This document shows positions 8,057 to 41,217 of a stretch of DNA of 43,817 nt, one piece after another; the stretch's first letter is position 1; the number at the start of each line of letters is the position of its first letter. The stretch spans positions 1 to 43,817 of IMG/VR virus record IMGVR_UViG_2558860161_000008; one strand, 5' to 3'. The stretch is from a virus (taxonomy: Duplodnaviria; Heunggongvirae; Uroviricota; Caudoviricetes). The notes under the pieces were generated by a model. It saw nothing but the letters and a program-made list of their open reading frames with translations. It was not told the DNA's origin and did not search any database. The translations under genes and the position numbers were made by a program.

Positions 8057-9201
8057 ACAGTTTAACGGCAAATAACCGTTGGTCGCAACAGCAGGTGGTC
8101 AGCGTGGCTGAACACCTGTTGTTACGGCATGAATGCAGATTATCAAATCACCTGGCTGTAAGTAACCACAGAGAACTTTACCTGACTGTGGGGGGCGAGT
8201 TGTGCAGGAACTTAACCGCTGGTTTCGTGACGGAAGAGGACTTTATGTTCATGTTATTCGTTGGGAGCCAGAAACACAGCGCGTTATCTATCTTCGCAAA
8301 GACTACCCGCATGAGTGCTTTAGTCCTTTGTGGAAATTCAGGCGTGATTTTGTTGAGTGTGAAGGACCACCAGCACATTGATTCTGCCATTCCGGGACGT
8401 TACACTGTTCAGGCACCTTATAAAGCGGGTGCCGGGATTGGCGTCCTGGAAATGTTATCGGCGATATATGACGCGCCAGCGTCTTTTTTATCGTCTGCGT
8501 CTGTGCACACCCAAATTATGGTGGGCTGGACGGGGGCACCGAAAGGTGCGCCGGTTTCCGATAACGCCGGTTACGCCAACCCCGTTCAGTTCACCACCAG
8601 CGAAATTGGCGTTTCCGGTGGTGAAGGTAATTCACTGTTATCGGAGACTGCCATCATGGCTACGATCCCAACCCTCACTCAACCTGAAATTGCCATCGTT
8701 GATGGTCAGGCTGTTACTTCATCCCTGGCTGTTGCCAACTTCTTCTCCAAACGTCATGACGATGTACTGAAAAAGATCCGCACGCTTGAATGTTCCGCAT
8801 CATTCACTGCCCGCAATTTTTCGGTGAGTGATTACACCGATTGCACAGGCCGCAAACTACCTTGCTATCAAATAACCCGCGACGGCTTTGCGTTTCTTGC
8901 TATGGGTTTCACGGGTAAACGTGCTGCCCAGTTCAAAGAGGCATACATCAATGCCTTTAACCAGATGGAGAAACAGCTTTCAAAGCCCGCTGTACCGAGC
9001 GACGTTGCACATAACGCCAGCGTTCTCTATTCCTACATTTCATCAATTCATCAGGTCTGGTTGCAGCAGCTTTATCCCATGCTGGAAAAAGCTGAATCAC
9101 CTCTGGCTGTAAGTCTGTATGACCGAATTAACGATGCGGCATTTCTTGCCCGTCTTATTCATTCGTCGCTGAACTCTTCAGAGGTAAGGGGGCGCAAATG
9201 A
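8053..9201 (+). CDS. Rha-family phage regulatory protein with an N-terminal extension
   Basis: C-terminal half matches the Rha domain pattern; internal ATG at 8656 with GGAGA RBS could start a Rha-only product. Confidence 0.55.
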   Translation: MNSLTANNRWSQQQVVSVAEHLLLRHECRLSNHLAVSNHRELYLTVGGELCRNLTAGFVTEEDFMFMLFVGSQKHSALSIFAKTTRMSALVLCGNSGVILLSVKDHQHIDSAIPGRYTVQAPYKAGAGIGVLEMLSAIYDAPASFLSSASVHTQIMVGWTGAPKGAPVSDNAGYANPVQFTTSEIGVSGGEGNSLLSETAIMATIPTLTQPEIAIVDGQAVTSSLAVANFFSKRHDDVLKKIRTLECSASFTARNFSVSDYTDCTGRKLPCYQITRDGFAFLAMGFTGKRAAQFKEAYINAFNQMEKQLSKPAVPSDVAHNASVLYSYISSIHQVWLQQLYPMLEKAESPLAVSLYDRINDAAFLARLIHSSLNSSEVRGRK

Positions 9202-9422
9202 TCCGGAATATTTTCAAACGATTTACCAATCAGACTTTCCGTTGTCCTCGCCCCGGTCAGTGGTACACCACGCCTGCAGGGCATGTTCTACGTGTTAGCC
9301 TGGTTGACCGTGAATGTCAGAAGGTGATTTGTGAACCGCTGGGCCGTAATTACCGCGTCAGTATGCCGCTTATAGCCTTTCGCTCCGGAAAAAACATGAA
9401 GCATCTCGGAGGTGCGGCATGA
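9198..9422 (+). CDS. Small hypothetical protein (74 aa)
   Basis: ORF coupled by overlapping stop/start to both flanking genes. Confidence 0.4.
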   Translation: MIRNIFKRFTNQTFRCPRPGQWYTTPAGHVLRVSLVDRECQKVICEPLGRNYRVSMPLIAFRSGKNMKHLGGAA

Positions 9423-10411
9423 GCCTGTTAATGACATCCCAGCCCATTGTGATAAATCGTGATCTTGCATGCCGTATTGGTCTGAATGAGGCAATTGTGT
9501 TGCAGCAGCTTCATTACTGGCTGAATGAAACGAATTCAGGCACTGAGCATGGCGGAATTCGCTGGGTTTATAACACGACAGAACAGTGGCTGGAGCAGTT
9601 TCCGTTCTGGTCAGAGTCCACTCTGAAACGCACATTTGCAAGCCTGAAATCACTTGGGGTTTTGCGTCGCGAGCAACTCAATAAATCGAAGCGTGACATG
9701 ACCAACTTCTACACGATCAACTATGAAAGTGAGCTTTTAGAAGAGGTCAAAGTGAACGAATCCATCAGGTCAAAATGCACTTCTCCATCGGGTCAAAGTG
9801 ACCTGATGGATGGGCGCAAAATGACACGATCCATTGGTTCAAAACGACACGCTGTCATCGGGTCAAAATGGCCCAATGATCTTACAGAGAATACAACAGA
9901 GATTACTACAGAGAATAAAACCTCTTCTCGTCCGGACGCTTCGCAACCGGACACGCAAACGGCTGAACAGGAGTTTTTAACTCGCCATCCTGATGCGGTT
10001 GTATTCAGCCCTAAAAAGCGCCAGTGGGGAACGCAGGATGATTTGACCTGCGCACAGTGGCTCTGGAAAAAAATCATCGCCCTGTACGAGCAGGCCGCCG
10101 AATGTGACGGCGAGGTGGTTCGTCCCAAAGAACCGAACTGGACAGCCTGGGCAAACGAAATTCGCCTGATGTGTGTGCAGGATGGTCGTACTCACAAACA
10201 AATCTGCGAGATGTACAGCCGCGTCAGCCGCGATCCGTTCTGGTGCCGTAACGTGCTCAGCCCGTCGAAGCTGCGGGAAAAATGGGATGAGCTTTCCCTG
10301 CGCTTATCGCCGTCCGTAAGTACGTACACCGAAAAACGCGAAGACCCGTACTTCAAATCCAGTTACGACAACGTGGACTACAGCCAGATCCCGGCAGGAT
10401 TCAGGGGGTGA
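9419..10411 (+). CDS. Replication initiator (lambda O-like N-terminal domain, DnaT-like C-terminal domain)
   Basis: 330 aa; iteron repeats embedded in the central linker-coding region as in lambda O; position after cro/cII-like genes. Confidence 0.6.
   Translation: MSLLMTSQPIVINRDLACRIGLNEAIVLQQLHYWLNETNSGTEHGGIRWVYNTTEQWLEQFPFWSESTLKRTFASLKSLGVLRREQLNKSKRDMTNFYTINYESELLEEVKVNESIRSKCTSPSGQSDLMDGRKMTRSIGSKRHAVIGSKWPNDLTENTTEITTENKTSSRPDASQPDTQTAEQEFLTRHPDAVVFSPKKRQWGTQDDLTCAQWLWKKIIALYEQAAECDGEVVRPKEPNWTAWANEIRLMCVQDGRTHKQICEMYSRVSRDPFWCRNVLSPSKLREKWDELSLRLSPSVSTYTEKREDPYFKSSYDNVDYSQIPAGFRG
9745..9930. repeat. Candidate replication origin: five RGGTCAAARTG iterons plus ACAGAGA repeats
   Basis: Iterons at 9745-9754, 9768-9777, 9791-9800, 9836-9846 (degenerate), 9861-9870; 11-bp inverted repeat 9762-9772 / 9799-9809; three ACAGAGA repeats in 9883-9925. 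Confidence 0.55.
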
Positions 10412-10413
10412 TC

Positions 10414-10902
10414 ATGAGTCTTTTGAATGAAGTTCAGAAATTCATTGAAGCCCATCCGGGGTGTACTTCCGGAGACATTGCGGATGCTTTTGCAGGTTAC
10501 TCACGGCAGCGCGTTCTGCAGTCAGCAAGCAAGTTACGTCAGAGTGGGCGTGTGGCTCACCGTTGTGAAGGAGATACACGCAGACATTTCTCGCGCCTGA
10601 CTGAGAGAGCGCAGGAGCCGGAACCACAACCAGTTTGTGAAACCAGACCTGTGCGCAAGTTCTATGTCGGCACTAACGCCCCCCGGGTGATTTTGTGCCT
10701 GACCCGCCAGGCTGAAGAACTGGAGTCGAGGGGCTTATACCGTCGTGCTGCAACGGTGTGGATGGAGGCATTCCGTGAAAGCCACTCCCAGCCAGAACGA
10801 AACAATTTTCTGGCGCGTCGTGAACGGTGTTTACGGAAAAGCAGCAAGCGCGCTGCATCGGGTGAAGAGTGGTATCTGTCAGGGAATTACGTGGGGGCTT
10901 AA
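10414..10902 (+). CDS. Hypothetical regulator (possible PerC/ANR-like C-terminal region)
   Basis: ATG at 10414 with AGGGGG RBS; C-terminal LESRGLYRRAATVWMEAF motif reminiscent of PerC/ANR regulators; low certainty. Confidence 0.4.
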   Translation: MSLLNEVQKFIEAHPGCTSGDIADAFAGYSRQRVLQSASKLRQSGRVAHRCEGDTRRHFSRLTERAQEPEPQPVCETRPVRKFYVGTNAPRVILCLTRQAEELESRGLYRRAATVWMEAFRESHSQPERNNFLARRERCLRKSSKRAASGEEWYLSGNYVGA

Positions 10903-11228
10903 TGACTACGTTAACTCAATGCCAGCAGCAGGTGCTGGATATGCTGATTTCTTATCAGAAAGAACGTGGCTTCCCGCCAACCAATCAGGAGGTGGCAACC
11001 ATGCTGGGATACCGTTCAGTGAATGCAGCGGTGGAGCATCTTCGCGCACTGGAGAAAAAAGGCGTCATCACGATAAAGCGTGGCGTGGCCCGGGGGATCA
11101 CGCTTCATACCGCAGTGAAGGACGACGACAGCGAAGCGGTCGGTATCATCCGCGCACTGCTTGCCGGTGAGGAGAACGCCAGGTTGCGTGCAGCCCACTG
11201 GTTACATGAGAGGGGCTTGAAAGTATGA
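10902..11228 (+). CDS. Orphan LexA-type N-terminal DNA-binding domain protein (no peptidase domain)
   Basis: 108 aa; closely resembles the LexA winged-helix DNA-binding domain (LTQRQQEVF...[36 protein letters not shown]); TAATG coupling to the upstream gene. Confidence 0.55.
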   Translation: MTTLTQCQQQVLDMLISYQKERGFPPTNQEVATMLGYRSVNAAVEHLRALEKKGVITIKRGVARGITLHTAVKDDDSEAVGIIRALLAGEENARLRAAHWLHERGLKV

Positions 11229-11614
11229 AGTTGATCCTTCCTTTCCCGCCCAGTGTGAACACGTACTGGCGACACCCCAACAAAGGGGCATTTGCTGGTA
11301 AGAGCCTGATAAGCGAGGCGGGGCGAAAATTTCAGAGCGCGGCGTGTGCCGCCATCATTGAGCAGTTACGTCGTCTGCCGAAACCAACGTCGGCACCTGC
11401 TTCAGTGGAGATCGTGTTGTTTCCTCCGGATAACCGGATCCGCGATCTGGACAACTATAACAAGGCGCTGTTTGACGCCCTGACCCACGCGGGTGTGTGG
11501 GAAGACGACAGACAGGTGAAAAGAATGCTGGTGGAGTGGGGACCGGTTATCCCGAAAGGGAAGGTCGAGATCACTATCAGTAAGTATGAGAAACCGGCGG
11601 GTGCAGCCGCCTGA
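11225..11614 (+). CDS. rusA: RusA Holliday-junction resolvase
   Basis: 129 aa; N-terminal LPFPPSVNTYWR and conserved acidic residues typical of RusA. Confidence 0.8.
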   Translation: MKLILPFPPSVNTYWRHPNKGAFAGKSLISEAGRKFQSAACAAIIEQLRRLPKPTSAPASVEIVLFPPDNRIRDLDNYNKALFDALTHAGVWEDDRQVKRMLVEWGPVIPKGKVEITISKYEKPAGAAA

Positions 11615-11633
11615 TTAAGAGGAGAAACGAAGT

Positions 11634-12443
11634 ATGAATAATCTGATGGTCATTGATGGTATTGAAGTTCGTCGTGATGCTTATGGGCGTTACAGCCTGA
11701 ACGATCTGCATCGCGCAGCAGTAGCATCTGGTGCAAATGCCAGAACTAAGGAGCCAGGAAAGTTTCTTTCCAGCCAACAAACTGTTGAGCTTGTTCATGA
11801 ATTGACCAATACCCAGAATTTGGGTGTTGACCCGGTGAGTGTGATTCATGGGGGAAATGAACGGGGAACGTATGTCTGCAAGGAACTGGTGTATGCCTAT
11901 GCAATGTGGATCAGCCCGTCATTCCATCTGAAGGTGATCCGTACTTTCGATATGGTAACCAGCGCACCGGAAAAATTATCCGGGCAGGCTGCTGACAAGA
12001 TGCAGGCTGGCGTGATCCTGCTGGACTTTATGCGCCGGGAGTTAAACCTGTCTAACTCTTCAGTGCTTGGTGCCTGTCAGAAACTCCAGGAGGCTGTTGG
12101 CTTACCGAATCTGGCACCGCGCTATGCCATTGATGCTCCTGCTGACGCGCCTGATGGCTCAAGCCGCCCCACGCTGTCACTGAGTGCACTGCTCAAGCAG
12201 TATGGTATCCGCCTGACAGCTAATCAGGCATATCACCAGATGGTGAAGCTGGGGATCGTCGAGCAGCGCGAACGATACAGCCGTACCGGGATTAACAACA
12301 TCAAAAAATTCTGGTCGCTGACGGCGAAAGGCTGCATGTTCGGCAAGAACATCACCAGTCCCGCAAATCCGCGCGAGACGCAGCCGCATTTCTTCGAATC
12401 CCGATTCCCTGAGCTGTTAAAGCTGCTCGATACCGTTCATTGA
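11634..12443 (+). CDS. KilA-N domain protein (antirepressor-like)
   Basis: 269 aa; N-terminal KilA-N-like region. Confidence 0.5.
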   Translation: MNNLMVIDGIEVRRDAYGRYSLNDLHRAAVASGANARTKEPGKFLSSQQTVELVHELTNTQNLGVDPVSVIHGGNERGTYVCKELVYAYAMWISPSFHLKVIRTFDMVTSAPEKLSGQAADKMQAGVILLDFMRRELNLSNSSVLGACQKLQEAVGLPNLAPRYAIDAPADAPDGSSRPTLSLSALLKQYGIRLTANQAYHQMVKLGIVEQRERYSRTGINNIKKFWSLTAKGCMFGKNITSPANPRETQPHFFESRFPELLKLLDTVH

Positions 12444-12444
12444 G

Positions 12445-13440
12445 GTGACCGTGAGAGCACTACTGACCCCTGAAATTGCCCCGCGTATGGGGATCGTATT
12501 GTTCAGACCCGGTTCAGAGCTGATGCCCCTGTTTATGCAGGGGCGTGTCCTGCTGGAGCCTGAGCCAGAACGTTATTCATCTTTTGCCAGTGGTGCCGTT
12601 CCGGCGGCATCACAACCGCTGGCGGATGATCCTGCTGTTCGGGCCGTGTTCCGCAATGAGGCAGTGATCCGTCGTGCTGGTGGCGTGGAATGTCTTGAAA
12701 GCTGGTTACTTCGTGAAAAAGGCTGCCAGTGGCCTCATTCCGACTGGCACAGCGAGAACATGACAACAATGCGTCACGCGCCGGGCGCAATCCGTCTGTG
12801 CTGGCACTGCGATAACCAGCTGCGCGATCAGTTCACGGAACGGCTGGAATCAATGGCAACGGATAACTGTGCCCGCTGGGTGTTGTCTGTCGTGCGTCGG
12901 GATCTCGGTTTTGATGATAGTCACGTTGTGACAATGCCGGAACTGTGCTGGTGGCTGGTTCGTAATGATCTGGCGGATGCCTTACCTGAAAGTGCAGCCC
13001 GTAAGGCACTGAGATTACCGAAGCCTGTTGTGCCGTCTGTCACCCGGGAGAGTGACCTTGTTCCTTCGGTTCCGGCCACCAGCATCATCCAGAATAAAGC
13101 GAAAAAGGTGCTGGCGCTGAAAGTGGATCCGGAGTCGCCGGAGTCTTTTATGTTACGCCCAAAACGTCGCCGCTGGGTTAACGAAAAGTACACGCGCTGG
13201 GTTAAGACGCAGCCGTGTGCATGTTGTGGAAAGCCTGCTGATGATCCCCACCACCTGATAGGCCACGGTCAGGGGGGAATGGGTACAAAAGCGCATGACC
13301 TCTTTGTGTTGCCTTTGTGCAGAAAGCATCACGACGAGCTGCATGCGGATACCGTGGCATTTGAAGAGAAGTATGGCTCCCAGCTGGAGCTGATATTTCG
13401 TTTTATCGATCGTGCGCTGGCAATAGGCGTACTGGCGTAA
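12445..13440 (+). CDS. DUF968 (YdfU-like) protein
   Basis: 331 aa; C-terminal CxxC...HH...C..HH zinc/HNH-like motif typical of DUF968; GTG start assumed. Confidence 0.6.
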   Translation: MTVRALLTPEIAPRMGIVLFRPGSELMPLFMQGRVLLEPEPERYSSFASGAVPAASQPLADDPAVRAVFRNEAVIRRAGGVECLESWLLREKGCQWPHSDWHSENMTTMRHAPGAIRLCWHCDNQLRDQFTERLESMATDNCARWVLSVVRRDLGFDDSHVVTMPELCWWLVRNDLADALPESAARKALRLPKPVVPSVTRESDLVPSVPATSIIQNKAKKVLALKVDPESPESFMLRPKRRRWVNEKYTRWVKTQPCACCGKPADDPHHLIGHGQGGMGTKAHDLFVLPLCRKHHDELHADTVAFEEKYGSQLELIFRFIDRALAIGVLA

Positions 13441-13453
13441 GTGGAGAATGAGC

Positions 13454-14206
13454 ATGAACCTTGAAGCCTTACCAAAATATTACTCCCCAAAATCTCCAAA
13501 ACTGAGCGATGACGCACCGGCGACAGGCTCTGGTGGTTTAACGATTACGGATGTGATGGCTGCGCAGGGGATGGTGCAGTCGAAAGCACCACTGGGTTTT
13601 GCCTTATTCCTGGCAAAAGTTGGTGTTCAGGATCCTCAGTTTGCGATTGAAGGTCTGCTCAATTACGCGATGGCACTGGATAACCCGACATTGAATAAAT
13701 TGAGTGAAGAAATCCGGTTACAGATCATCCCTTACCTTGTGAATTTTGCCTTTGCTGATTATTCCAGGTCTGCGGCAAGTAAGGCTCGCTGTGAGCATTG
13801 TGCAGGTACTGGATTTCATAATGTATTGCGCGAAGTGGTGAAACACTCCAGAAGCGGTGAATCTGTTATCAAGGAGGAGTGGGTGAAGGAACTATGTCAG
13901 CATTGTCATGGTAAGGGAGAAGTCAGCACAGCGTGCAGAGGGTGTAAGGGTAAAGGTATTGTCCTGGATGAAAAAAGGACCCGGCTTCATGGCACGCCTG
14001 TTTATAAGATTTGTGGGCGTTGCAATGGAAACCGGTTTAGCCGTTTACCAACCACACTGGCGCGGCATCATGTCCAGAAGCTGGTACCAGACCTGACGGA
14101 TTATCAGTGGTACAAAGGATATGCAGATGTCATTGATAAACTGGTTACAAAGTGCTGGCAGGAAGAAGCATATGCAGAGATACAATTGAGAAAGGTGACA
14201 AGATAA
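13454..14206 (+). CDS. Late-gene antitermination protein Q
   Basis: Cys-rich zinc-binding motifs (CEHCAGTG, CQHCHGKG, CRGCKGKG, CGRCNG); followed by a pR'-like promoter and tR' hairpin. Confidence 0.65.
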   Translation: MNLEALPKYYSPKSPKLSDDAPATGSGGLTITDVMAAQGMVQSKAPLGFALFLAKVGVQDPQFAIEGLLNYAMALDNPTLNKLSEEIRLQIIPYLVNFAFADYSRSAASKARCEHCAGTGFHNVLREVVKHSRSGESVIKEEWVKELCQHCHGKGEVSTACRGCKGKGIVLDEKRTRLHGTPVYKICGRCNGNRFSRLPTTLARHHVQKLVPDLTDYQWYKGYADVIDKLVTKCWQEEAYAEIQLRKVTR

Positions 14207-14434: not shown

Positions 14435-14662
14435 ATGTTAACCAGAAGGGAAAAAGACATGCTAAAACAGCAAGATATTACAGAAACCGCCGCCGCAGTC
14501 CTTCATTTCTTACCTGCTGACAAGTGGGTAACGCCATGCATGATGACGAGAACTACCGGAGTAAGCGAAGCCCGGTGCCAGTTAATACTGACTCAGTTAG
14601 TTCTGGCGGGTCTGGCGAAGGATAACGGCGGGTACGGGAATAAATTCAGACGCTGCCAGTAA
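14435..14662 (+). CDS. Small hypothetical protein (possible winged-helix)
   Basis: 75-aa ORF; start may be an internal Met at 14459. Confidence 0.4.
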   Translation: MLTRREKDMLKQQDITETAAAVLHFLPADKWVTPCMMTRTTGVSEARCQLILTQLVLAGLAKDNGGYGNKFRRCQ

Positions 14663-14812: not shown

Positions 14813-15865
14813 ATGAAAAATACTGTAAATATAAACAGTGTTGAGCTTATCAACGCTGACTGCCTGCAATACCTCGCAACCCTCCCAGATAACACCATCG
14901 ACCTTATTGTTACGGATCCGCCTTATTTTAAGGTGAAGCCGAACGGCTGGGATAATCAGTGGAACGGTGACGCCGACTATCTTCGCTGGCTTGATATGTG
15001 TCTTGCCCAGTTCTGGCGAGTGCTTAAGCCTGCCGGCAGCCTGTATTTGTTTTCAGGTCACCGACTTGCATCCGATATTGAGATCATGATGCGTGAACGC
15101 TTCAACGTCATGAACCACATTATCTGGGCGAAGCCATCAGGGCGTTGGAACGGTTGTAATAAAGAAAGCCTGCGCTCTTACTTCCCCGCGACGGAACGCA
15201 TCCTTTTCGCTGAGCATTATCAGGGGCCATATAAGCCGAAAAGCGACGGATTTGCTGAGAAAAGCAACGAGGTCAAACAGCACGTCATGGCTCCGTTAAT
15301 CACCTACTTTCGTGATGCACGAGCCGAACTGGGGGTCACGTCCAGGCAAATAGCTGACGCTACCGGAAAGAAAAATATGGCGTCTCATTGGTTCGGTACC
15401 AGTCAGTGGCAACTACCAAACGAGCAGGATTACGAAAAGCTGCAGGAATTGTTCACTCAGATCGCCATTGAGAAGCACCGCGCCTCTGAACTCAAAGCAC
15501 CGCATCACCAGCTGGTGGCCACATGGCATTCGTTGAACCGGAAATACCTTGATCTGCTGGAAGAGTACAAATCTCTTCGGCGGCATTTCTCTGTGACAGT
15601 AGCCGTGCCCTATACAGACGTCTGGACACATAAACCCGTCCAGTTCTATCCAGGCAAACACCCGTGCGAAAAGCCCGCTGATATGTTGCGGCAAATCATC
15701 AACGCCAGCAGCAGGCCCGGCGATGTGGTAGCTGATTTCTTTATGGGCTCGGGATCAACTGTTAAAGCAGCCATTGAACTGGGCCGCCAGGCTATCGGCG
15801 TAGAACTGGAAGAGGAACGTTTCAACCAGACGGTAAGTGAGGTAAGGCAGCTGGCATGGGAATAA
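14813..15865 (+). CDS. Orphan DNA methyltransferase (N6-adenine/N4-cytosine type, DPPY motif)
   Basis: 350 aa; N-terminal DPPY catalytic motif and C-terminal FMGSGST AdoMet-binding motif. Confidence 0.8.
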   Translation: MKNTVNINSVELINADCLQYLATLPDNTIDLIVTDPPYFKVKPNGWDNQWNGDADYLRWLDMCLAQFWRVLKPAGSLYLFSGHRLASDIEIMMRERFNVMNHIIWAKPSGRWNGCNKESLRSYFPATERILFAEHYQGPYKPKSDGFAEKSNEVKQHVMAPLITYFRDARAELGVTSRQIADATGKKNMASHWFGTSQWQLPNEQDYEKLQELFTQIAIEKHRASELKAPHHQLVATWHSLNRKYLDLLEEYKSLRRHFSVTVAVPYTDVWTHKPVQFYPGKHPCEKPADMLRQIINASSRPGDVVADFFMGSGSTVKAAIELGRQAIGVELEEERFNQTVSEVRQLAWE

Positions 15866-17289: not shown

Positions 17290-17589
17290 ATGATTTTTCC
17301 CATTGTGAAGTCTGTCTACATCAACAGCAAAACTGATAGTCGTTTAATACGTTATGATGTTATTCGTACTGACCCCGATACCTACCTCGTCAAAGTTTTC
17401 GATAATCAACAGCGTGGAATTTCGGTACCAGGCCTGATTAGTCAAATTTCCGAGTTCGAAATAACTCGTGCTGCCTATAATGAAAAATATCAGGTGGGTA
17501 ATCGCGTAGTCGTGAAAATGAATGCGGACCCCGGATTTGAAAACACCATTGATGGTGAGTTGCAAGCACATCGAGATAGTTTGTCGTGA
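17290..17589 (+). CDS. Hypothetical protein (99 aa), AT-rich moron
   Basis: ORF preceded by a duplicated ATAAGGATAAAAA element and followed by a terminator. Confidence 0.45.
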   Translation: MIFPIVKSVYINSKTDSRLIRYDVIRTDPDTYLVKVFDNQQRGISVPGLISQISEFEITRAAYNEKYQVGNRVVVKMNADPGFENTIDGELQAHRDSLS

Positions 17590-40907: not shown

Positions 40908-41156
40908 TTAGTGAACAAACCACTCGTCAGCAGATTCCCAGGTATCTTTCAGAGTCTCCTGAACAAAAGTTTTTGCAGAATCCTTATCTGCGGTGCGTGT
41001 AACAGAAAGGCCATCGTTGCTGGTGGCTTTTACGATCACCTCTACATCGTCATAACGTTTACTGATGCGTCGGGTTAATTCTTCCTTTAACGCATCCACA
41101 GCACCGGTTGGCATTTTAGTCATTTTTTCTTTGGCTATGCAGATTTCAATACGCAT
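40908..41156 (-). CDS. DinI-like DNA-damage-inducible protein
   Basis: 82 aa; closely matches the DinI pattern (MRIE...AK...[11 protein letters not shown]). Confidence 0.75.
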
Positions 41157-41169
41157 AAAAGTCCCTCTA

Positions 41170-41214
41170 TACTGTGTTTGTATACAGTATTATTTTTAAC
41201 TGTATGGATAAACA
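41170..41214. promoter_or_regulatory. Two LexA (SOS) boxes upstream of the DinI-like gene
   Basis: TACTGTgtttgtatACAGTA (41170-41189) and CTGTatggataaACAG (41199-41214), both CTGT-N8-ACAG. Confidence 0.6.
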
Positions 41215-41217
41215 GTG

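What the first reader, a model, noticed from the sequence alone, without database searches (positions are those of the whole stretch)
10414..11228. Orphan LexA-type DNA-binding domain protein with no peptidase domain, coupled to an upstream putative regulator
The 108-aa product of 10902..11228 closely resembles the LexA N-terminal DNA-binding domain but lacks the S24 autocleavage domain. It could be an uncleavable LexA mimic that binds SOS boxes, for example the two upstream of the DinI-like gene in this prophage. The upstream ORF has a PerC/ANR-like C-terminus.
Basis: partly seen in the sequence, partly recalled or inferred. Interest (0 to 1): 0.5.

Follow-up and report, generated by a model that had tools for sequence, protein, structure and literature searches.

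The report
Prophage LexA-like DNA-binding protein
A small prophage protein copies only the DNA-binding half of the bacterial SOS repressor LexA and adds a short helical tail; it is real, very common in E. coli prophages and already annotated but untested, and its constant neighbour is a recombination gene (RusA), not the PerC-like regulator next to it here.

Summary
ORF 10902-11228 encodes 108 aa with a LexA winged-helix DNA-binding domain (Pfam E 2.9e-19; 51% identical to E. coli LexA residues 1-70; model rmsd 1.2-1.5 A). It has no S24 peptidase domain. Residues 75-102 form a conserved two-helix tail. ORF 10414-10902 is YfdN, a winged-helix domain plus a PerC/ANR-like three-helix domain.

The pair is not an orphan. 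The region is in 2687 of 5426 complete E. coli genomes and in SfV, SfII, SfIV, mEp460 and Stx2c phages, annotated "LexA family transcriptional regulator".

The coupling to YfdN is local. Most relatives carry a dam gene between the two genes, and it is cleanly absent here. The conserved neighbour is RusA immediately downstream, then DUF968 and Q.

Three of LexA's five DNA-contact residues are near-invariant across the family. Position 44 is never Glu and position 45 varies, although all hosts share one SOS box. In Klebsiella, Cedecea and Salmonella relatives the gene lies behind an SOS-box promoter, often with a DinI-like gene.

Best reading: a RecA-insensitive LexA-derived operator-binding protein made after induction, probably acting on SOS-type boxes (about 0.4). 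The closest precedent, GIL01 gp6, binds a different palindrome, and that remains a serious rival. New variant of a known kind; moderate interest.

The parts
10902..11228 (+). LexA-like gene: 108-aa protein with a LexA winged-helix DNA-binding domain plus a C-terminal helical hairpin and no S24 peptidase domain
   Evidence: Pfam LexA_DNA_bind E 2.9e-19. PHROG 362 E 1.6e-59. PDB LexA hits at about 1e-15. Model and fold match. NCBIfam LexA score below cut-off.
10902..11105 (+). Residues 1-68: three helices plus a beta-hairpin wing, equivalent to the LexA N-terminal domain
   Evidence: DSSP of the model gives H6-22, H28-35, H40-52, E56-59 and E65-68. Rmsd 1.2-1.5 A to 1lea and 3jso.
11016..11057 (+). 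Recognition-helix region, residues 39-52 (SVNAAVEHLRALEK). LexA has [14 protein letters not shown].
   Evidence: Alignment to LexA. Contact residues S39, N41, A42, E44 and E45 are listed in PMC3091678. Family counts: S39 136/136, N41 136/136, A42 133/136, position 44 never E, position 45 E in 70/136.
11124..11207 (+). Residues 75-102: conserved helix-loop-helix tail, inferred to be a dimerisation or interaction module
   Evidence: Model helices 75-87 and 93-102 with pLDDT about 82. The tail is conserved down to about 40% identity, with A97 and L101 invariant. dN/dS 0.19 for this part in the Enterobacter clade.
10414..10902 (+). yfdN: N-terminal winged helix, disordered linker, then a PerC/ANR-like three-helix domain
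   Evidence: Pfam PerC E 2.5e-9. PHROG 1324 E 4.7e-77. ANR_neg_reg sub-threshold. Model with a winged helix at residues 3-59 and helices at 90-146. RefSeq names the gene yfdN.
10900..10904 (+). TAATG overlap of the yfdN stop and the LexA-like start. In most relatives a dam gene sits at this junction.
   Evidence: Sequence. Junction alignment with UTI89. UTI89 and SfV annotation. Gap counts.
11225..11614 (+). RusA Holliday-junction resolvase gene. Its start overlaps the LexA-like stop (ATGA). This is the conserved downstream neighbour.
   Evidence: Pfam RusA E 7.1e-15. RusA lies immediately downstream for 101 of 136 distinct family sequences and within 1.5 kb for 16 more. Independent loci agree.
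9419..10411 (+). O-like/DnaD-like replication initiator, upstream gene of the same operon
   Evidence: PHROG 391 E 1e-101.
11634..12443 (+). KilA-N domain protein, a variable slot between RusA and DUF968
   Evidence: Pfam KilA-N E 2.4e-22. Some relatives have an SOS box in front of this gene.
12445..13440 (+). DUF968/HNH-like protein, conserved downstream member of the block
   Evidence: Pfam DUF968 E 1.5e-81. Detected as 254 ORF hits across the loci searched with this profile, and it is retained where RusA is missing.
13448..14206 (+). Q-type antiterminator, end of the early operon
   Evidence: RefSeq annotation of the 99.5%-identical region in strain G5. Antiterm Pfam hits in related loci.
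7186..7215 (+). pR-like promoter candidate (TTGACA-18-TACATT) that would drive the operon containing the gene
   Evidence: Consensus scan, 10 of 12 matches. Genes from 7247 to 14206 have overlapping or abutting ends. This is a consensus match only.
6498..7151 (-). cI-type repressor (HTH + S24). It makes induction RecA-dependent, so the LexA-like gene is expressed after induction.
   Evidence: ORF translation shows an HTH N-terminus and an S24-type C-terminus. The related G5 prophage has an XRE-family repressor gene at the equivalent position. The domain call is by inspection, not an HMM.
41170..41217 (.). Two canonical SOS boxes (TACTGTGTTTGTATACAGTA and AACTGTATGGATAAACAGTG), candidate targets
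   Evidence: Exact CTGT-N8-ACAG cores. They match the 20-mer consensus at 17/20 and 15/20 positions.
40908..41156 (-). DinI-like gene downstream of the two boxes
   Evidence: Pfam DinI E 1.1e-19. ORF.
14821..14840 (.). Third strong SOS box (TACTGTAAATATAAACAGTG), overlapping codons 4-9 of the methyltransferase ORF 14813-15865. Candidate target.
   Evidence: The same box sits at the same place in SfV, mEp460 and a Salmonella relative.

Best explanation
The gene encodes a LexA-derived, RecA-insensitive operator-binding protein of the lambdoid 'nin' region.

Shown:
- It has the LexA winged-helix domain but lacks the S24 domain, so it has neither the protease nor LexA's dimerisation domain.
- It carries a conserved C-terminal two-helix tail.
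- It lies inside the early rightward operon, between the replication gene and Q, translationally coupled to RusA.
- The prophage repressor is a cleavable cI type.

Inferred:
- After SOS induction destroys cI and host LexA, the protein is made from pR.
- It dimerises through the helical tail and occupies palindromic operators built from CTGT-like half-sites, most likely SOS-type boxes.
- It thereby re-imposes repression that RecA* cannot relieve. Possible targets are the phage's own dinI-like promoter and the box at the methylase start, host SOS genes, and LexA-controlled rivals such as other prophages' antirepressors or colicins.
- In relatives where the gene itself sits behind an SOS-box promoter with DinI, it would act as a feedback brake on the SOS response.
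For: Identity and fold are given. Absence of the protease domain is shown.

Four of the five LexA DNA-contact residues are kept in the window protein. S39, N41 and A42 are kept in 136, 136 and 133 of 136 distinct family sequences. Wing residues K53, R64 and G65 are also invariant.

Both halves are under purifying selection, with dN/dS about 0.2. The tail is conserved down to 40% identity.

The operon position and overlapping stop and start codons are shown. The cleavable cI is shown.

CTGT-N8-ACAG is the only enriched palindrome spacing in the window, 5 observed against 0.54 expected. Three of the five are strong boxes.

In the Klebsiella, Cedecea and Salmonella clades a terminator, a sigma-70 promoter and a canonical SOS box lie upstream of [DinI-like] - small ORF - LexA-like - (RusA) - DUF968. 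Some loci add an SOS-boxed ORF with a UmuD-like GFPSPAKDY motif; that ORF has no Pfam hit. This places the gene among SOS-related functions.

From established knowledge (own): the isolated LexA N-terminal fragment still binds operators and dimerises on DNA (Hurstel 1986; Kim and Little 1992). The cell removes the fragment with ClpXP after cleavage (Neher 2003). A stable N-terminal look-alike is therefore expected to repress.

Precedent for a nin-region protein that mimics a host DNA-binding domain is lambda NinH, a Fis mimic (PMC7166090).
Against: Position 44 (Glu in LexA, a contact residue) is never Glu in 136 family sequences. Position 45 is E in 70, D in 35, A in 19 and L in 10, although every identified host is an Enterobacteriaceae genus with the same SOS box. 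A pure LexA mimic should conserve these residues. R28 of LexA is also never kept.

The SOS boxes upstream of the gene in other clades stay canonical while the recognition helix changes (AE, AL, FI). They are therefore best read as host-LexA sites.

Phages with the gene carry 0-3 strong SOS boxes. Enterobacter and Cronobacter clade loci carry none within 6 kb.

The only characterised phage LexA-domain protein, GIL01 gp6, binds a non-SOS palindrome and activates transcription (PMC6182141).

Dimerisation through the tail is inferred only. No DNA-binding data exist.
Confidence: 0.4

Rival explanations
1. gp6-like regulator with its own specificity. The captured LexA domain has drifted to recognise a phage-specific palindrome rather than the SOS box. 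It then activates or represses a phage promoter to time lytic development.
For: GIL01 gp6 is a truncated LexA homologue, 44% identical to its host's LexA N-terminal domain. It binds GaCACAn nTGTGaC at promoter P3 and activates it. The specificity positions 44 and 45 differ between clades (AE, VE, TD, VA, AL, FI) as in immunity-type regulators. The number of the phage's own SOS boxes is inconsistent among carriers.
Against: No palindrome other than the SOS box is over-represented in the window. The best others occur 3 times and have no biological context. Lambdoid late expression is handled by Q, which lies four genes downstream (11 kb coordinates 13448-14206). S39, N41 and A42 are invariant, which argues that part of the CTGT reading head is retained.
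Confidence: 0.3
2. DNA-binding accessory of the recombination block. The protein works with RusA and/or the DUF968 HNH-like protein, for example by positioning or restraining junction cleavage. This is analogous to the small Fis-like NinH encoded next to the lambda Rap resolvase gene.
For: RusA lies immediately downstream with overlapping stop and start codons for 101 of 136 distinct sequences, and within 1.5 kb for 16 more. The adjacency holds for two very different RusA subtypes. DUF968 is retained even where RusA is absent. The upstream neighbours vary: YfdN, Dam, MT-A70 or C5 methylases, a replication protein, or a small ORF.
Against: Eighteen distinct sequences have no RusA yet keep the same C-terminal tail, so the tail is not a RusA-specific interface. 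RusA works alone in vitro (own knowledge). Synteny in mosaic lambdoid nin regions can persist without functional coupling.
Confidence: 0.15
3. Two-component regulator with YfdN. The PerC/ANR-like protein and the LexA-like protein act as a pair.
For: The stop and start codons overlap in the window. A PerC-family gene lies upstream in the same operon in most E. coli, Enterobacter and Cronobacter loci. ANR and PerC proteins act through protein-protein contacts (PMC11773190).
Against: Direct adjacency is seen in only 27 of 80 E. coli-clade loci and about 1 of 190 elsewhere. A methylase gene normally intervenes, and the window junction is a clean absence of dam between two ATGA motifs. PerC is absent from nearly all Klebsiella/Cedecea loci (31 of 34 with room), from the Salmonella locus and from 9 of 12 P0150 loci. 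YfdN is tied to the replication gene, not to the LexA-like gene.
Confidence: 0.05
4. Decaying remnant of a captured host lexA 5' end with no function.
For: Residual similarity extends to the LexA hinge, and an Ala88-Gly89-Glu motif aligns with the LexA cleavage site A84-G85-E86.
Against: dN/dS is about 0.2 in both halves. Length and architecture are conserved at 40% identity across six genera. The gene is present in 2687 complete E. coli genomes. The AG motif is not conserved in the family (position 88 is S, A, E or N).
Confidence: 0.02

Closest known systems
GIL01 gp6 (Bacillus thuringiensis tectivirus), a 'truncated LexA homologue' (Fornelos et al. 2018, PMC6182141)
   Same: Both are phage-encoded small proteins consisting essentially of the LexA winged-helix DNA-binding domain without the S24 domain. 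Both hit Pfam LexA_DNA_bind (gp6 E 7.9e-14; window E 2.9e-19). Each is about 44-51% identical to its own host's LexA N-terminal domain. Both are early genes in an SOS-linked phage.
   Different: There is no detectable pairwise similarity by BLASTP, so these are independent captures from Gram-positive and gammaproteobacterial LexA. gp6 is 66 aa with no tail, while this protein adds a conserved helix-loop-helix of about 35 aa. gp6 is in a tectivirus whose lysogeny is held by host LexA. This gene is in a lambdoid prophage with its own cleavable cI and a Q antiterminator. gp6's target and activator role are experimentally shown; nothing is shown here.
E. coli LexA N-terminal domain (residues 1-84, the autocleavage product)
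   Same: Same fold (rmsd 1.2-1.5 A) and 51% identity. S39, N41, A42, E45, K53, R64 and G65 are conserved.
   Different: E44 is V and R28 is N. There is no S24 domain, so no RecA*-stimulated cleavage and no LexA-type dimer interface. The helical tail replaces them. There is no C-terminal VAA-like ClpX signal (own knowledge of Neher 2003). The score is below the NCBIfam LexA cut-off.
Lambda NinH, the Fis mimic of the nin region (Chakraborti et al. 2020, PMC7166090)
   Same: Both are small dimeric-type HTH proteins encoded in the nin region of a lambdoid phage, next to a Holliday-junction resolvase gene. Each copies the DNA-binding part of a host global regulator.
   Different: The fold and the host model differ (Fis versus LexA). 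NinH follows Rap, whereas this gene precedes RusA. NinH binding and bending are demonstrated.
PerC/Pch and ANR families (for the upstream ORF, YfdN)
   Same: The C-terminal three-helix domain matches Pfam PerC above threshold and resembles ANR. K-12 YfdN is called the K-12 PerC homologue (PMC5931665).
   Different: YfdN has an extra N-terminal winged helix and a disordered linker. PchD and PchE had little or no effect on ler. A PICI PerC-like protein repressed LEE. The family name therefore does not predict activity.

Membership tests
LexA repressor (TIGR00498 equivalog) | N-terminal LexA winged-helix DNA-binding domain | tested here: met
   Pfam PF01726 E 2.9e-19 over the full model length. 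Fold rmsd 1.2-1.5 A to 1lea and 3jso.
LexA repressor (TIGR00498 equivalog) | C-terminal S24 peptidase/dimerisation domain with the Ser119-Lys156 dyad | tested here: not met
   The protein ends at residue 108. There is no Peptidase_S24 hit, and only model positions 1-91 of 203 are matched.
LexA repressor (TIGR00498 equivalog) | Whole-protein score above the curated cut-off | tested here: not met
   70.5 bits against a cut-off of 110.95.
LexA repressor (TIGR00498 equivalog) | Conserved Ala-Gly autocleavage site | tested here: inconclusive
   A88-G89-E90 aligns with LexA A84-G85-E86 in the window protein. In the family, position 88 is S in 61, A in 27 and E in 19 sequences, and there is no protease to use the site.
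LexA repressor (TIGR00498 equivalog) | DNA-contact residues S39, N41, A42, E44, E45 (PMC3091678) | tested here: inconclusive
   The window protein keeps 4 of 5 (E44 is V). In the family, S39, N41 and A42 are near-invariant, position 44 is never E, and position 45 is E in 70 of 136.
LexA repressor (TIGR00498 equivalog) | Binds CTGT-N8-ACAG SOS boxes and represses | not testable with these tools
   Candidate boxes exist at 14823, 41172 and 41200. There are no binding data.
Phage truncated LexA homologues (GIL01 gp6 kind) | [quoted passage not shown] | tested here: met
   The protein has an extra helical tail of about 35 aa that gp6 lacks.
Phage truncated LexA homologues (GIL01 gp6 kind) | Sequence relatedness to gp6 itself | tested here: not met
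   BLASTP finds no alignment. The two proteins share only the Pfam domain.
Phage truncated LexA homologues (GIL01 gp6 kind) | Binds a phage promoter palindrome distinct from the SOS box and activates late transcription | not testable with these tools
   No non-SOS palindrome is enriched in the window. Function is unknown.
PerC family (upstream ORF, YfdN) | PerC domain above the Pfam gathering score | tested here: met
   37.7 bits against 22.6, residues 98-149. The model shows a three-helix domain at 90-146 with pLDDT above 90.
ANR family (upstream ORF) | NCBIfam NF033650 above its cut-off | tested here: not met
   25 bits against 32.
RusA (downstream ORF) | RusA domain above the Pfam gathering score | tested here: met
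   56.2 bits against 22.8.

The most novel reading that the evidence does not exclude
A prophage gene present in about half of E. coli strains, and in relatives across Enterobacteriaceae, encodes a RecA-proof LexA surrogate. Once expressed, it re-closes SOS boxes while the host LexA pool is destroyed. This would shorten or blunt the SOS response (mutagenesis, SOS toxins, colicin release) and silence rival LexA-controlled prophages. In Klebsiella-type phages it would form, with DinI, an SOS-induced negative-feedback module.
Probability: 0.3. Interest if true: 0.7.

Novelty: new variant of a known kind. Interest (0 to 1): 0.4.

Why it matters
If the protein binds SOS boxes, a very common prophage gene would alter how long and how strongly E. 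coli, Klebsiella, Salmonella and Cronobacter run the SOS response. That would affect antibiotic-induced mutagenesis, Stx-phage and other prophage induction, and competition between co-resident prophages.

If instead it has its own operator, it would be a second, independent case after GIL01 gp6 of phages borrowing the LexA reading head for their own circuitry. It would also give a function to one of the uncharacterised nin-region genes of SfV-, Stx2c- and mEp460-type phages.

Either way the test is cheap: one small protein, a few operators and one reporter strain.

Tried and rejected
1. I looked for a published function with all 10 searches (yfdN, LexA-like, PF01726, truncated or phage-encoded LexA and others). 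Nothing on this protein turned up. The searches did yield GIL01 gp6 and NinH as precedents.
2. The UTI89 filamentation fragment that includes yfdN2 (PMC6206680) does not include the LexA-like gene, so the phenotype cannot be assigned to it.
3. The genome-contig scan with a family alignment used the pattern around EHLRALEKKG and returned only genuine LexA genes from Halomonas and others.
4. The first family alignment was too diverse for the search for related loci.
5. A search for any other enriched palindrome in the window (5-mer arms, spacers 0-14) found only the SOS box to be meaningful.
6. I tested whether the SOS box at the methylase start co-occurs with the gene in phage records. Only 6 records matched, too few to judge.
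7. I considered the Ala-Gly motif as a trans-cleavage site and rejected it because it is not conserved.
8. PADLOC gave no defence-system link.
9. I could not retrieve the LexA-DNA structure paper. The contact residues are taken from PMC3091678 instead.
10. Homodimer or DNA-complex prediction was not possible with the single-chain predictor.
Full report
WHAT IS THERE

The window is an SfV/e14/lambdoid-type E. coli prophage. The early rightward operon runs from a pR-like promoter (7186-7215) through these genes:
- cro-like ORF (7247)
- ymfL-like ORF (7472-8056)
- Ash+Rha fusion ORF (8053-9201)
- 74-aa ORF (9198-9422)
- O-like replication protein (9419-10411; PHROG 391, E 1e-101)
- yfdN (10414-10902)
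- the LexA-like ORF (10902-11228)
- RusA (11225-11614)
- KilA-N protein (11634-12443)
- DUF968 (12445-13440)
- Q (13448-14206)

Almost every junction is an overlapping or abutting stop and start. The repressor at 6498-7151 (minus strand) is an HTH plus S24 cI type by inspection.

The LexA-like ORF is 108 aa. Pfam LexA_DNA_bind covers residues 1-65 (E 2.9e-19). PDB LexA chains hit at about 1e-15 with 51% identity over residues 2-70. An AlphaFold model (pLDDT 75) superposes on 1lea and 3jso at 1.2-1.5 A. There is no S24 domain. The NCBIfam LexA equivalog scores 70.5 bits against a cut-off of 110.95 and covers only model positions 1-91 of 203. Residues 75-102 form two helices.

YfdN is a confident N-terminal winged helix (residues 3-59), a disordered linker, and a confident three-helix domain (90-146). 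That C-terminal domain is the Pfam PerC match (E 2.5e-9) and is ANR-like below threshold.

HOW COMMON, AND WHAT IT IS CALLED

The 1.1-kb region is found at 90% identity or more in all but one of 2696 records, belonging to 2687 of 5426 complete E. coli genomes. It is also found in 50 phage records, including SfV (orf40-dam-orf42-orf43), SfII, SfIV, mEp460 and Stx2c-converting phages. RefSeq names the genes 'PerC family transcriptional regulator' (yfdN) and 'LexA family transcriptional regulator/protein'. PHROG 362 calls the protein a 'transcriptional repressor'. These names are homology labels. I found no paper that tests the protein.

THE FAMILY

An exhaustive profile search found full-length relatives down to about 40% identity. 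All share the same architecture: the LexA domain, a short linker and a helix-loop-helix with invariant A97 and L101. They come from prophages of Escherichia, Citrobacter, Salmonella, Hafnia, Cronobacter, Enterobacter, Cedecea and Klebsiella. In the Enterobacter clade dN/dS is about 0.20 for the winged helix and 0.19 for the tail. Both parts are therefore functional.

NEIGHBOURS

I collected 269 loci from IMG/VR and assemblies, giving 136 distinct family sequences with room downstream.
- RusA lies immediately downstream, usually with overlapping codons, for 101 of the 136.
- RusA lies within 1.5 kb for 16 more.
- 18 lack RusA but keep a 67-aa ORF and DUF968.

Two very different RusA subtypes occur in this position. 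Upstream neighbours vary: YfdN, Dam, an MT-A70-type methylase, C5/D12 methylases, a replication protein, or a small conserved ORF.

In the E. coli clade, 47 of 80 loci have a 600-700-nt dam gene between yfdN and the LexA-like gene, 27 are dam-less like the window, and 4 have no PerC gene upstream. Elsewhere direct adjacency is essentially absent. The window junction equals the UTI89 yfdN/dam junction up to ...GGGGGCTTAATGA and the dam/LexA-like junction from ATGAC onward. Dam is therefore cleanly absent between two ATGA motifs. The 'coupling to an upstream regulator' is thus a local accident of module content. YfdN belongs with the replication gene, and the LexA-like gene belongs with RusA and DUF968.

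THE READING HEAD

LexA's DNA-contacting residues are S39, N41, A42, E44 and E45 (PMC3091678). The window protein has S, N, A, V and E at these positions. Counts across the 136 sequences:
- S39: 136
- N41: 136
- A42: 133
- Position 44: A 68, T 34, V 33, F 1, never E
- Position 45: E 70, D 35, A 19, L 10, T 1, I 1
- R28 is never kept
- K53, R64 and G65 are invariant

All identified hosts are Enterobacteriaceae, whose LexA boxes are the same. Part of the CTGT-reading surface is therefore frozen, but the two acidic positions are free to vary. That is not what strict mimicry of host LexA predicts. It resembles what happened to GIL01 gp6.

SOS CONTEXT

In the window, CTGT-N8-ACAG occurs 5 times against 0.54 expected, and no other spacing is enriched. 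Three of the boxes are strong: 41172, 41200 and 14823. No other palindrome stands out.

Carriers differ in box content. SfV has one strong box (at the methylase start). mEp460 has three. PhiR49_1 has one, between RusA and KilA-N. Kati has none.

The more telling result comes from the distant clades. In the Klebsiella, Cedecea/Enterobacter and Salmonella loci a terminator is followed by a sigma-70-like promoter and a canonical SOS box. Examples are TTGCAA-N16/17-TAATAAT then ACCTGTACATTCATACAGTA in L005, and TACTGTTTATATATACAGTG in L008. These lie upstream of a small conserved ORF and then the LexA-like gene. In Klebsiella-type loci a Pfam DinI gene (E 1e-23) comes first. A second SOS box precedes an ORF with a UmuD-like 'GFPSPAKDY' N-terminus, which has no Pfam hit.

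In those phages the LexA-like gene is therefore itself an SOS-controlled gene, sitting among RecA/SOS modulators. The boxes stay canonical while the phage protein's helix varies (AE, AL, FI), so host LexA is their obvious ligand. Whether the phage protein also binds them is open.

MECHANISM

Shown: the fold, the absence of the protease and dimer domain, the conserved tail, the operon position, the cleavable cI, and the SOS-linked context in relatives.

Inferred: the protein appears after induction, or after SOS derepression in the distant clades. It dimerises through the tail and binds palindromes with CTGT-like half-sites. Because it cannot be cleaved, it acts as a RecA-proof repressor.

From general knowledge, the isolated LexA N-terminal fragment still binds operators, and the cell removes it with ClpXP. 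A stable look-alike should therefore have an effect.

My estimates are about 0.4 for action on SOS-type boxes, about 0.3 for a private operator (gp6-like), about 0.15 for a role with RusA and DUF968 (NinH-like), and little for a YfdN partnership or a dead remnant.

COMPARISON WITH THE KNOWN

The nearest characterised thing is GIL01 gp6, a 66-aa 'truncated LexA homologue' that binds GaCACAn nTGTGaC and activates the late promoter (PMC6182141). gp6 and the window protein share the Pfam domain but show no pairwise similarity. The window protein is much closer to E. coli LexA. This indicates an independent capture with an added tail, in a different kind of phage.

The protein is not a LexA. It fails the protease-domain and score criteria.

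Lambda NinH, a Fis mimic in the nin region, is a conceptual parallel (PMC7166090).

VERDICT

This is a real, widespread, already-annotated but functionally untested family. The 'orphan' label and the 'coupled regulator' framing do not hold, and strict SOS-box mimicry is uncertain. I rate it a new variant of a known kind, with interest 0.4.

Noticed in passing
window 14821-14840 (methyltransferase ORF 14813-15865): A near-consensus SOS box (TACTGTAAATATAAACAGTG, 17/20) overlaps codons 4-9 of the 350-aa DNA methyltransferase downstream of Q and tR'. The same box sits at the same place in SfV orf48 (34172), mEp460 (39702) and a Salmonella prophage (L008, about 6740). Because it is encoded by conserved T-V-x-I-N-S codons, I cannot separate selection on the site from selection on the protein.
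   Followed up: partly
window, whole: CTGT-N8-ACAG occurs 5 times (8156, 14823, 17312, 41172, 41200) against 0.54 expected, and only spacing 8 is enriched. The boxes at 8156 and 17312 are weak (11/20 and 13/20). The one at 17312 lies 22 nt into ORF 17290-17589.
   Followed up: partly
L113 1839-3327; L005 3505-4408; L008 3476-4357: In Klebsiella, Cedecea and Salmonella prophages a terminator, then a promoter and a canonical SOS box, lie upstream of [DinI-like] - conserved small ORF - LexA-like. L113 also has a perfect-consensus box in front of a 109-aa ORF that starts MGFPSPAKDY (UmuD-like motif, no Pfam hit).
   Followed up: partly
L005 3713-3961; L008 3724-3951; L113 2589-2894 and 3324-3527: Two small protein families have no Pfam match. 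One carries the motif GY..RC.D..VVA..SFP...YR.G..VSF.PL and lies just upstream of the LexA-like gene. The other is a 67-aa ORF just downstream. They flank the LexA-like gene in 35 and 34 loci of these clades and are absent from the window.
   Followed up: partly
L136, L168, L172, L183 and others, about 94-113; L160 and L186 3765; PhiR49_1 (L356) 9939: Some E. coli relatives carry a strong SOS box inside the minus-strand cI-type repressor gene. Others carry one in the RusA/KilA-N intergenic region, which suggests a LexA-controlled KilA-N (antirepressor-like) gene. The window has neither.
   Followed up: no
window 10900-10904 versus L271 (UTI89) 3840 and 4490: dam shows a clean presence/absence polymorphism between two ATGA motifs. 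In 80 E. coli-clade viral contigs, 27 are dam-less and 47 contain dam.
   Followed up: yes
L271 (UTI89 4,997,073-4,999,597): A published fragment that causes filamentation when overexpressed covers part of Rha, a 74-aa ORF, the O-like gene, yfdN2 and the start of dam. It does not cover the LexA-like gene. The responsible gene was not identified in that paper.
   Followed up: partly
proteins P0135, P0136, P0129, P0141: Some single polypeptides contain two tandem LexA DNA-binding domains and no S24 domain. They may be single-chain 'dimers' of the LexA reading head. Their origin and context were not examined.
   Followed up: no
window 14435-14662 (+): A 75-aa ORF lies between tR' and the methylase. 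By eye it looks like a small winged-helix protein (…TGVSEARCQLILTQLVLAGLAKD…). I did not run it against any library.
   Followed up: no
L001 (E. coli G5) 4602-5210 versus prophage from about 9156: In strain G5 the 99.5%-identical prophage is integrated at a truncated tRNA-dihydrouridine synthase gene about 4 kb from the host lexA-dinF operon. This is probably a coincidence of the att site.
   Followed up: no
window 8053-9201 (+): A single 382-aa ORF combines Pfam Phage_ASH (residues 117-212) and Phage_pRha (residues 222-307). It contains the weak CTGT-N8-ACAG core at 8156, which is conserved in SfV (27346).
   Followed up: no
L011 2091-2780; L006 2826-4004; L008 1446-3467; L009 236-2065: A DNA methyltransferase gene of varying type (Dam, MT-A70-like, C5, C5+D12 fusion) lies upstream of the LexA-like gene in most clades, usually directly, although the methylase families are unrelated.
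   Followed up: partly
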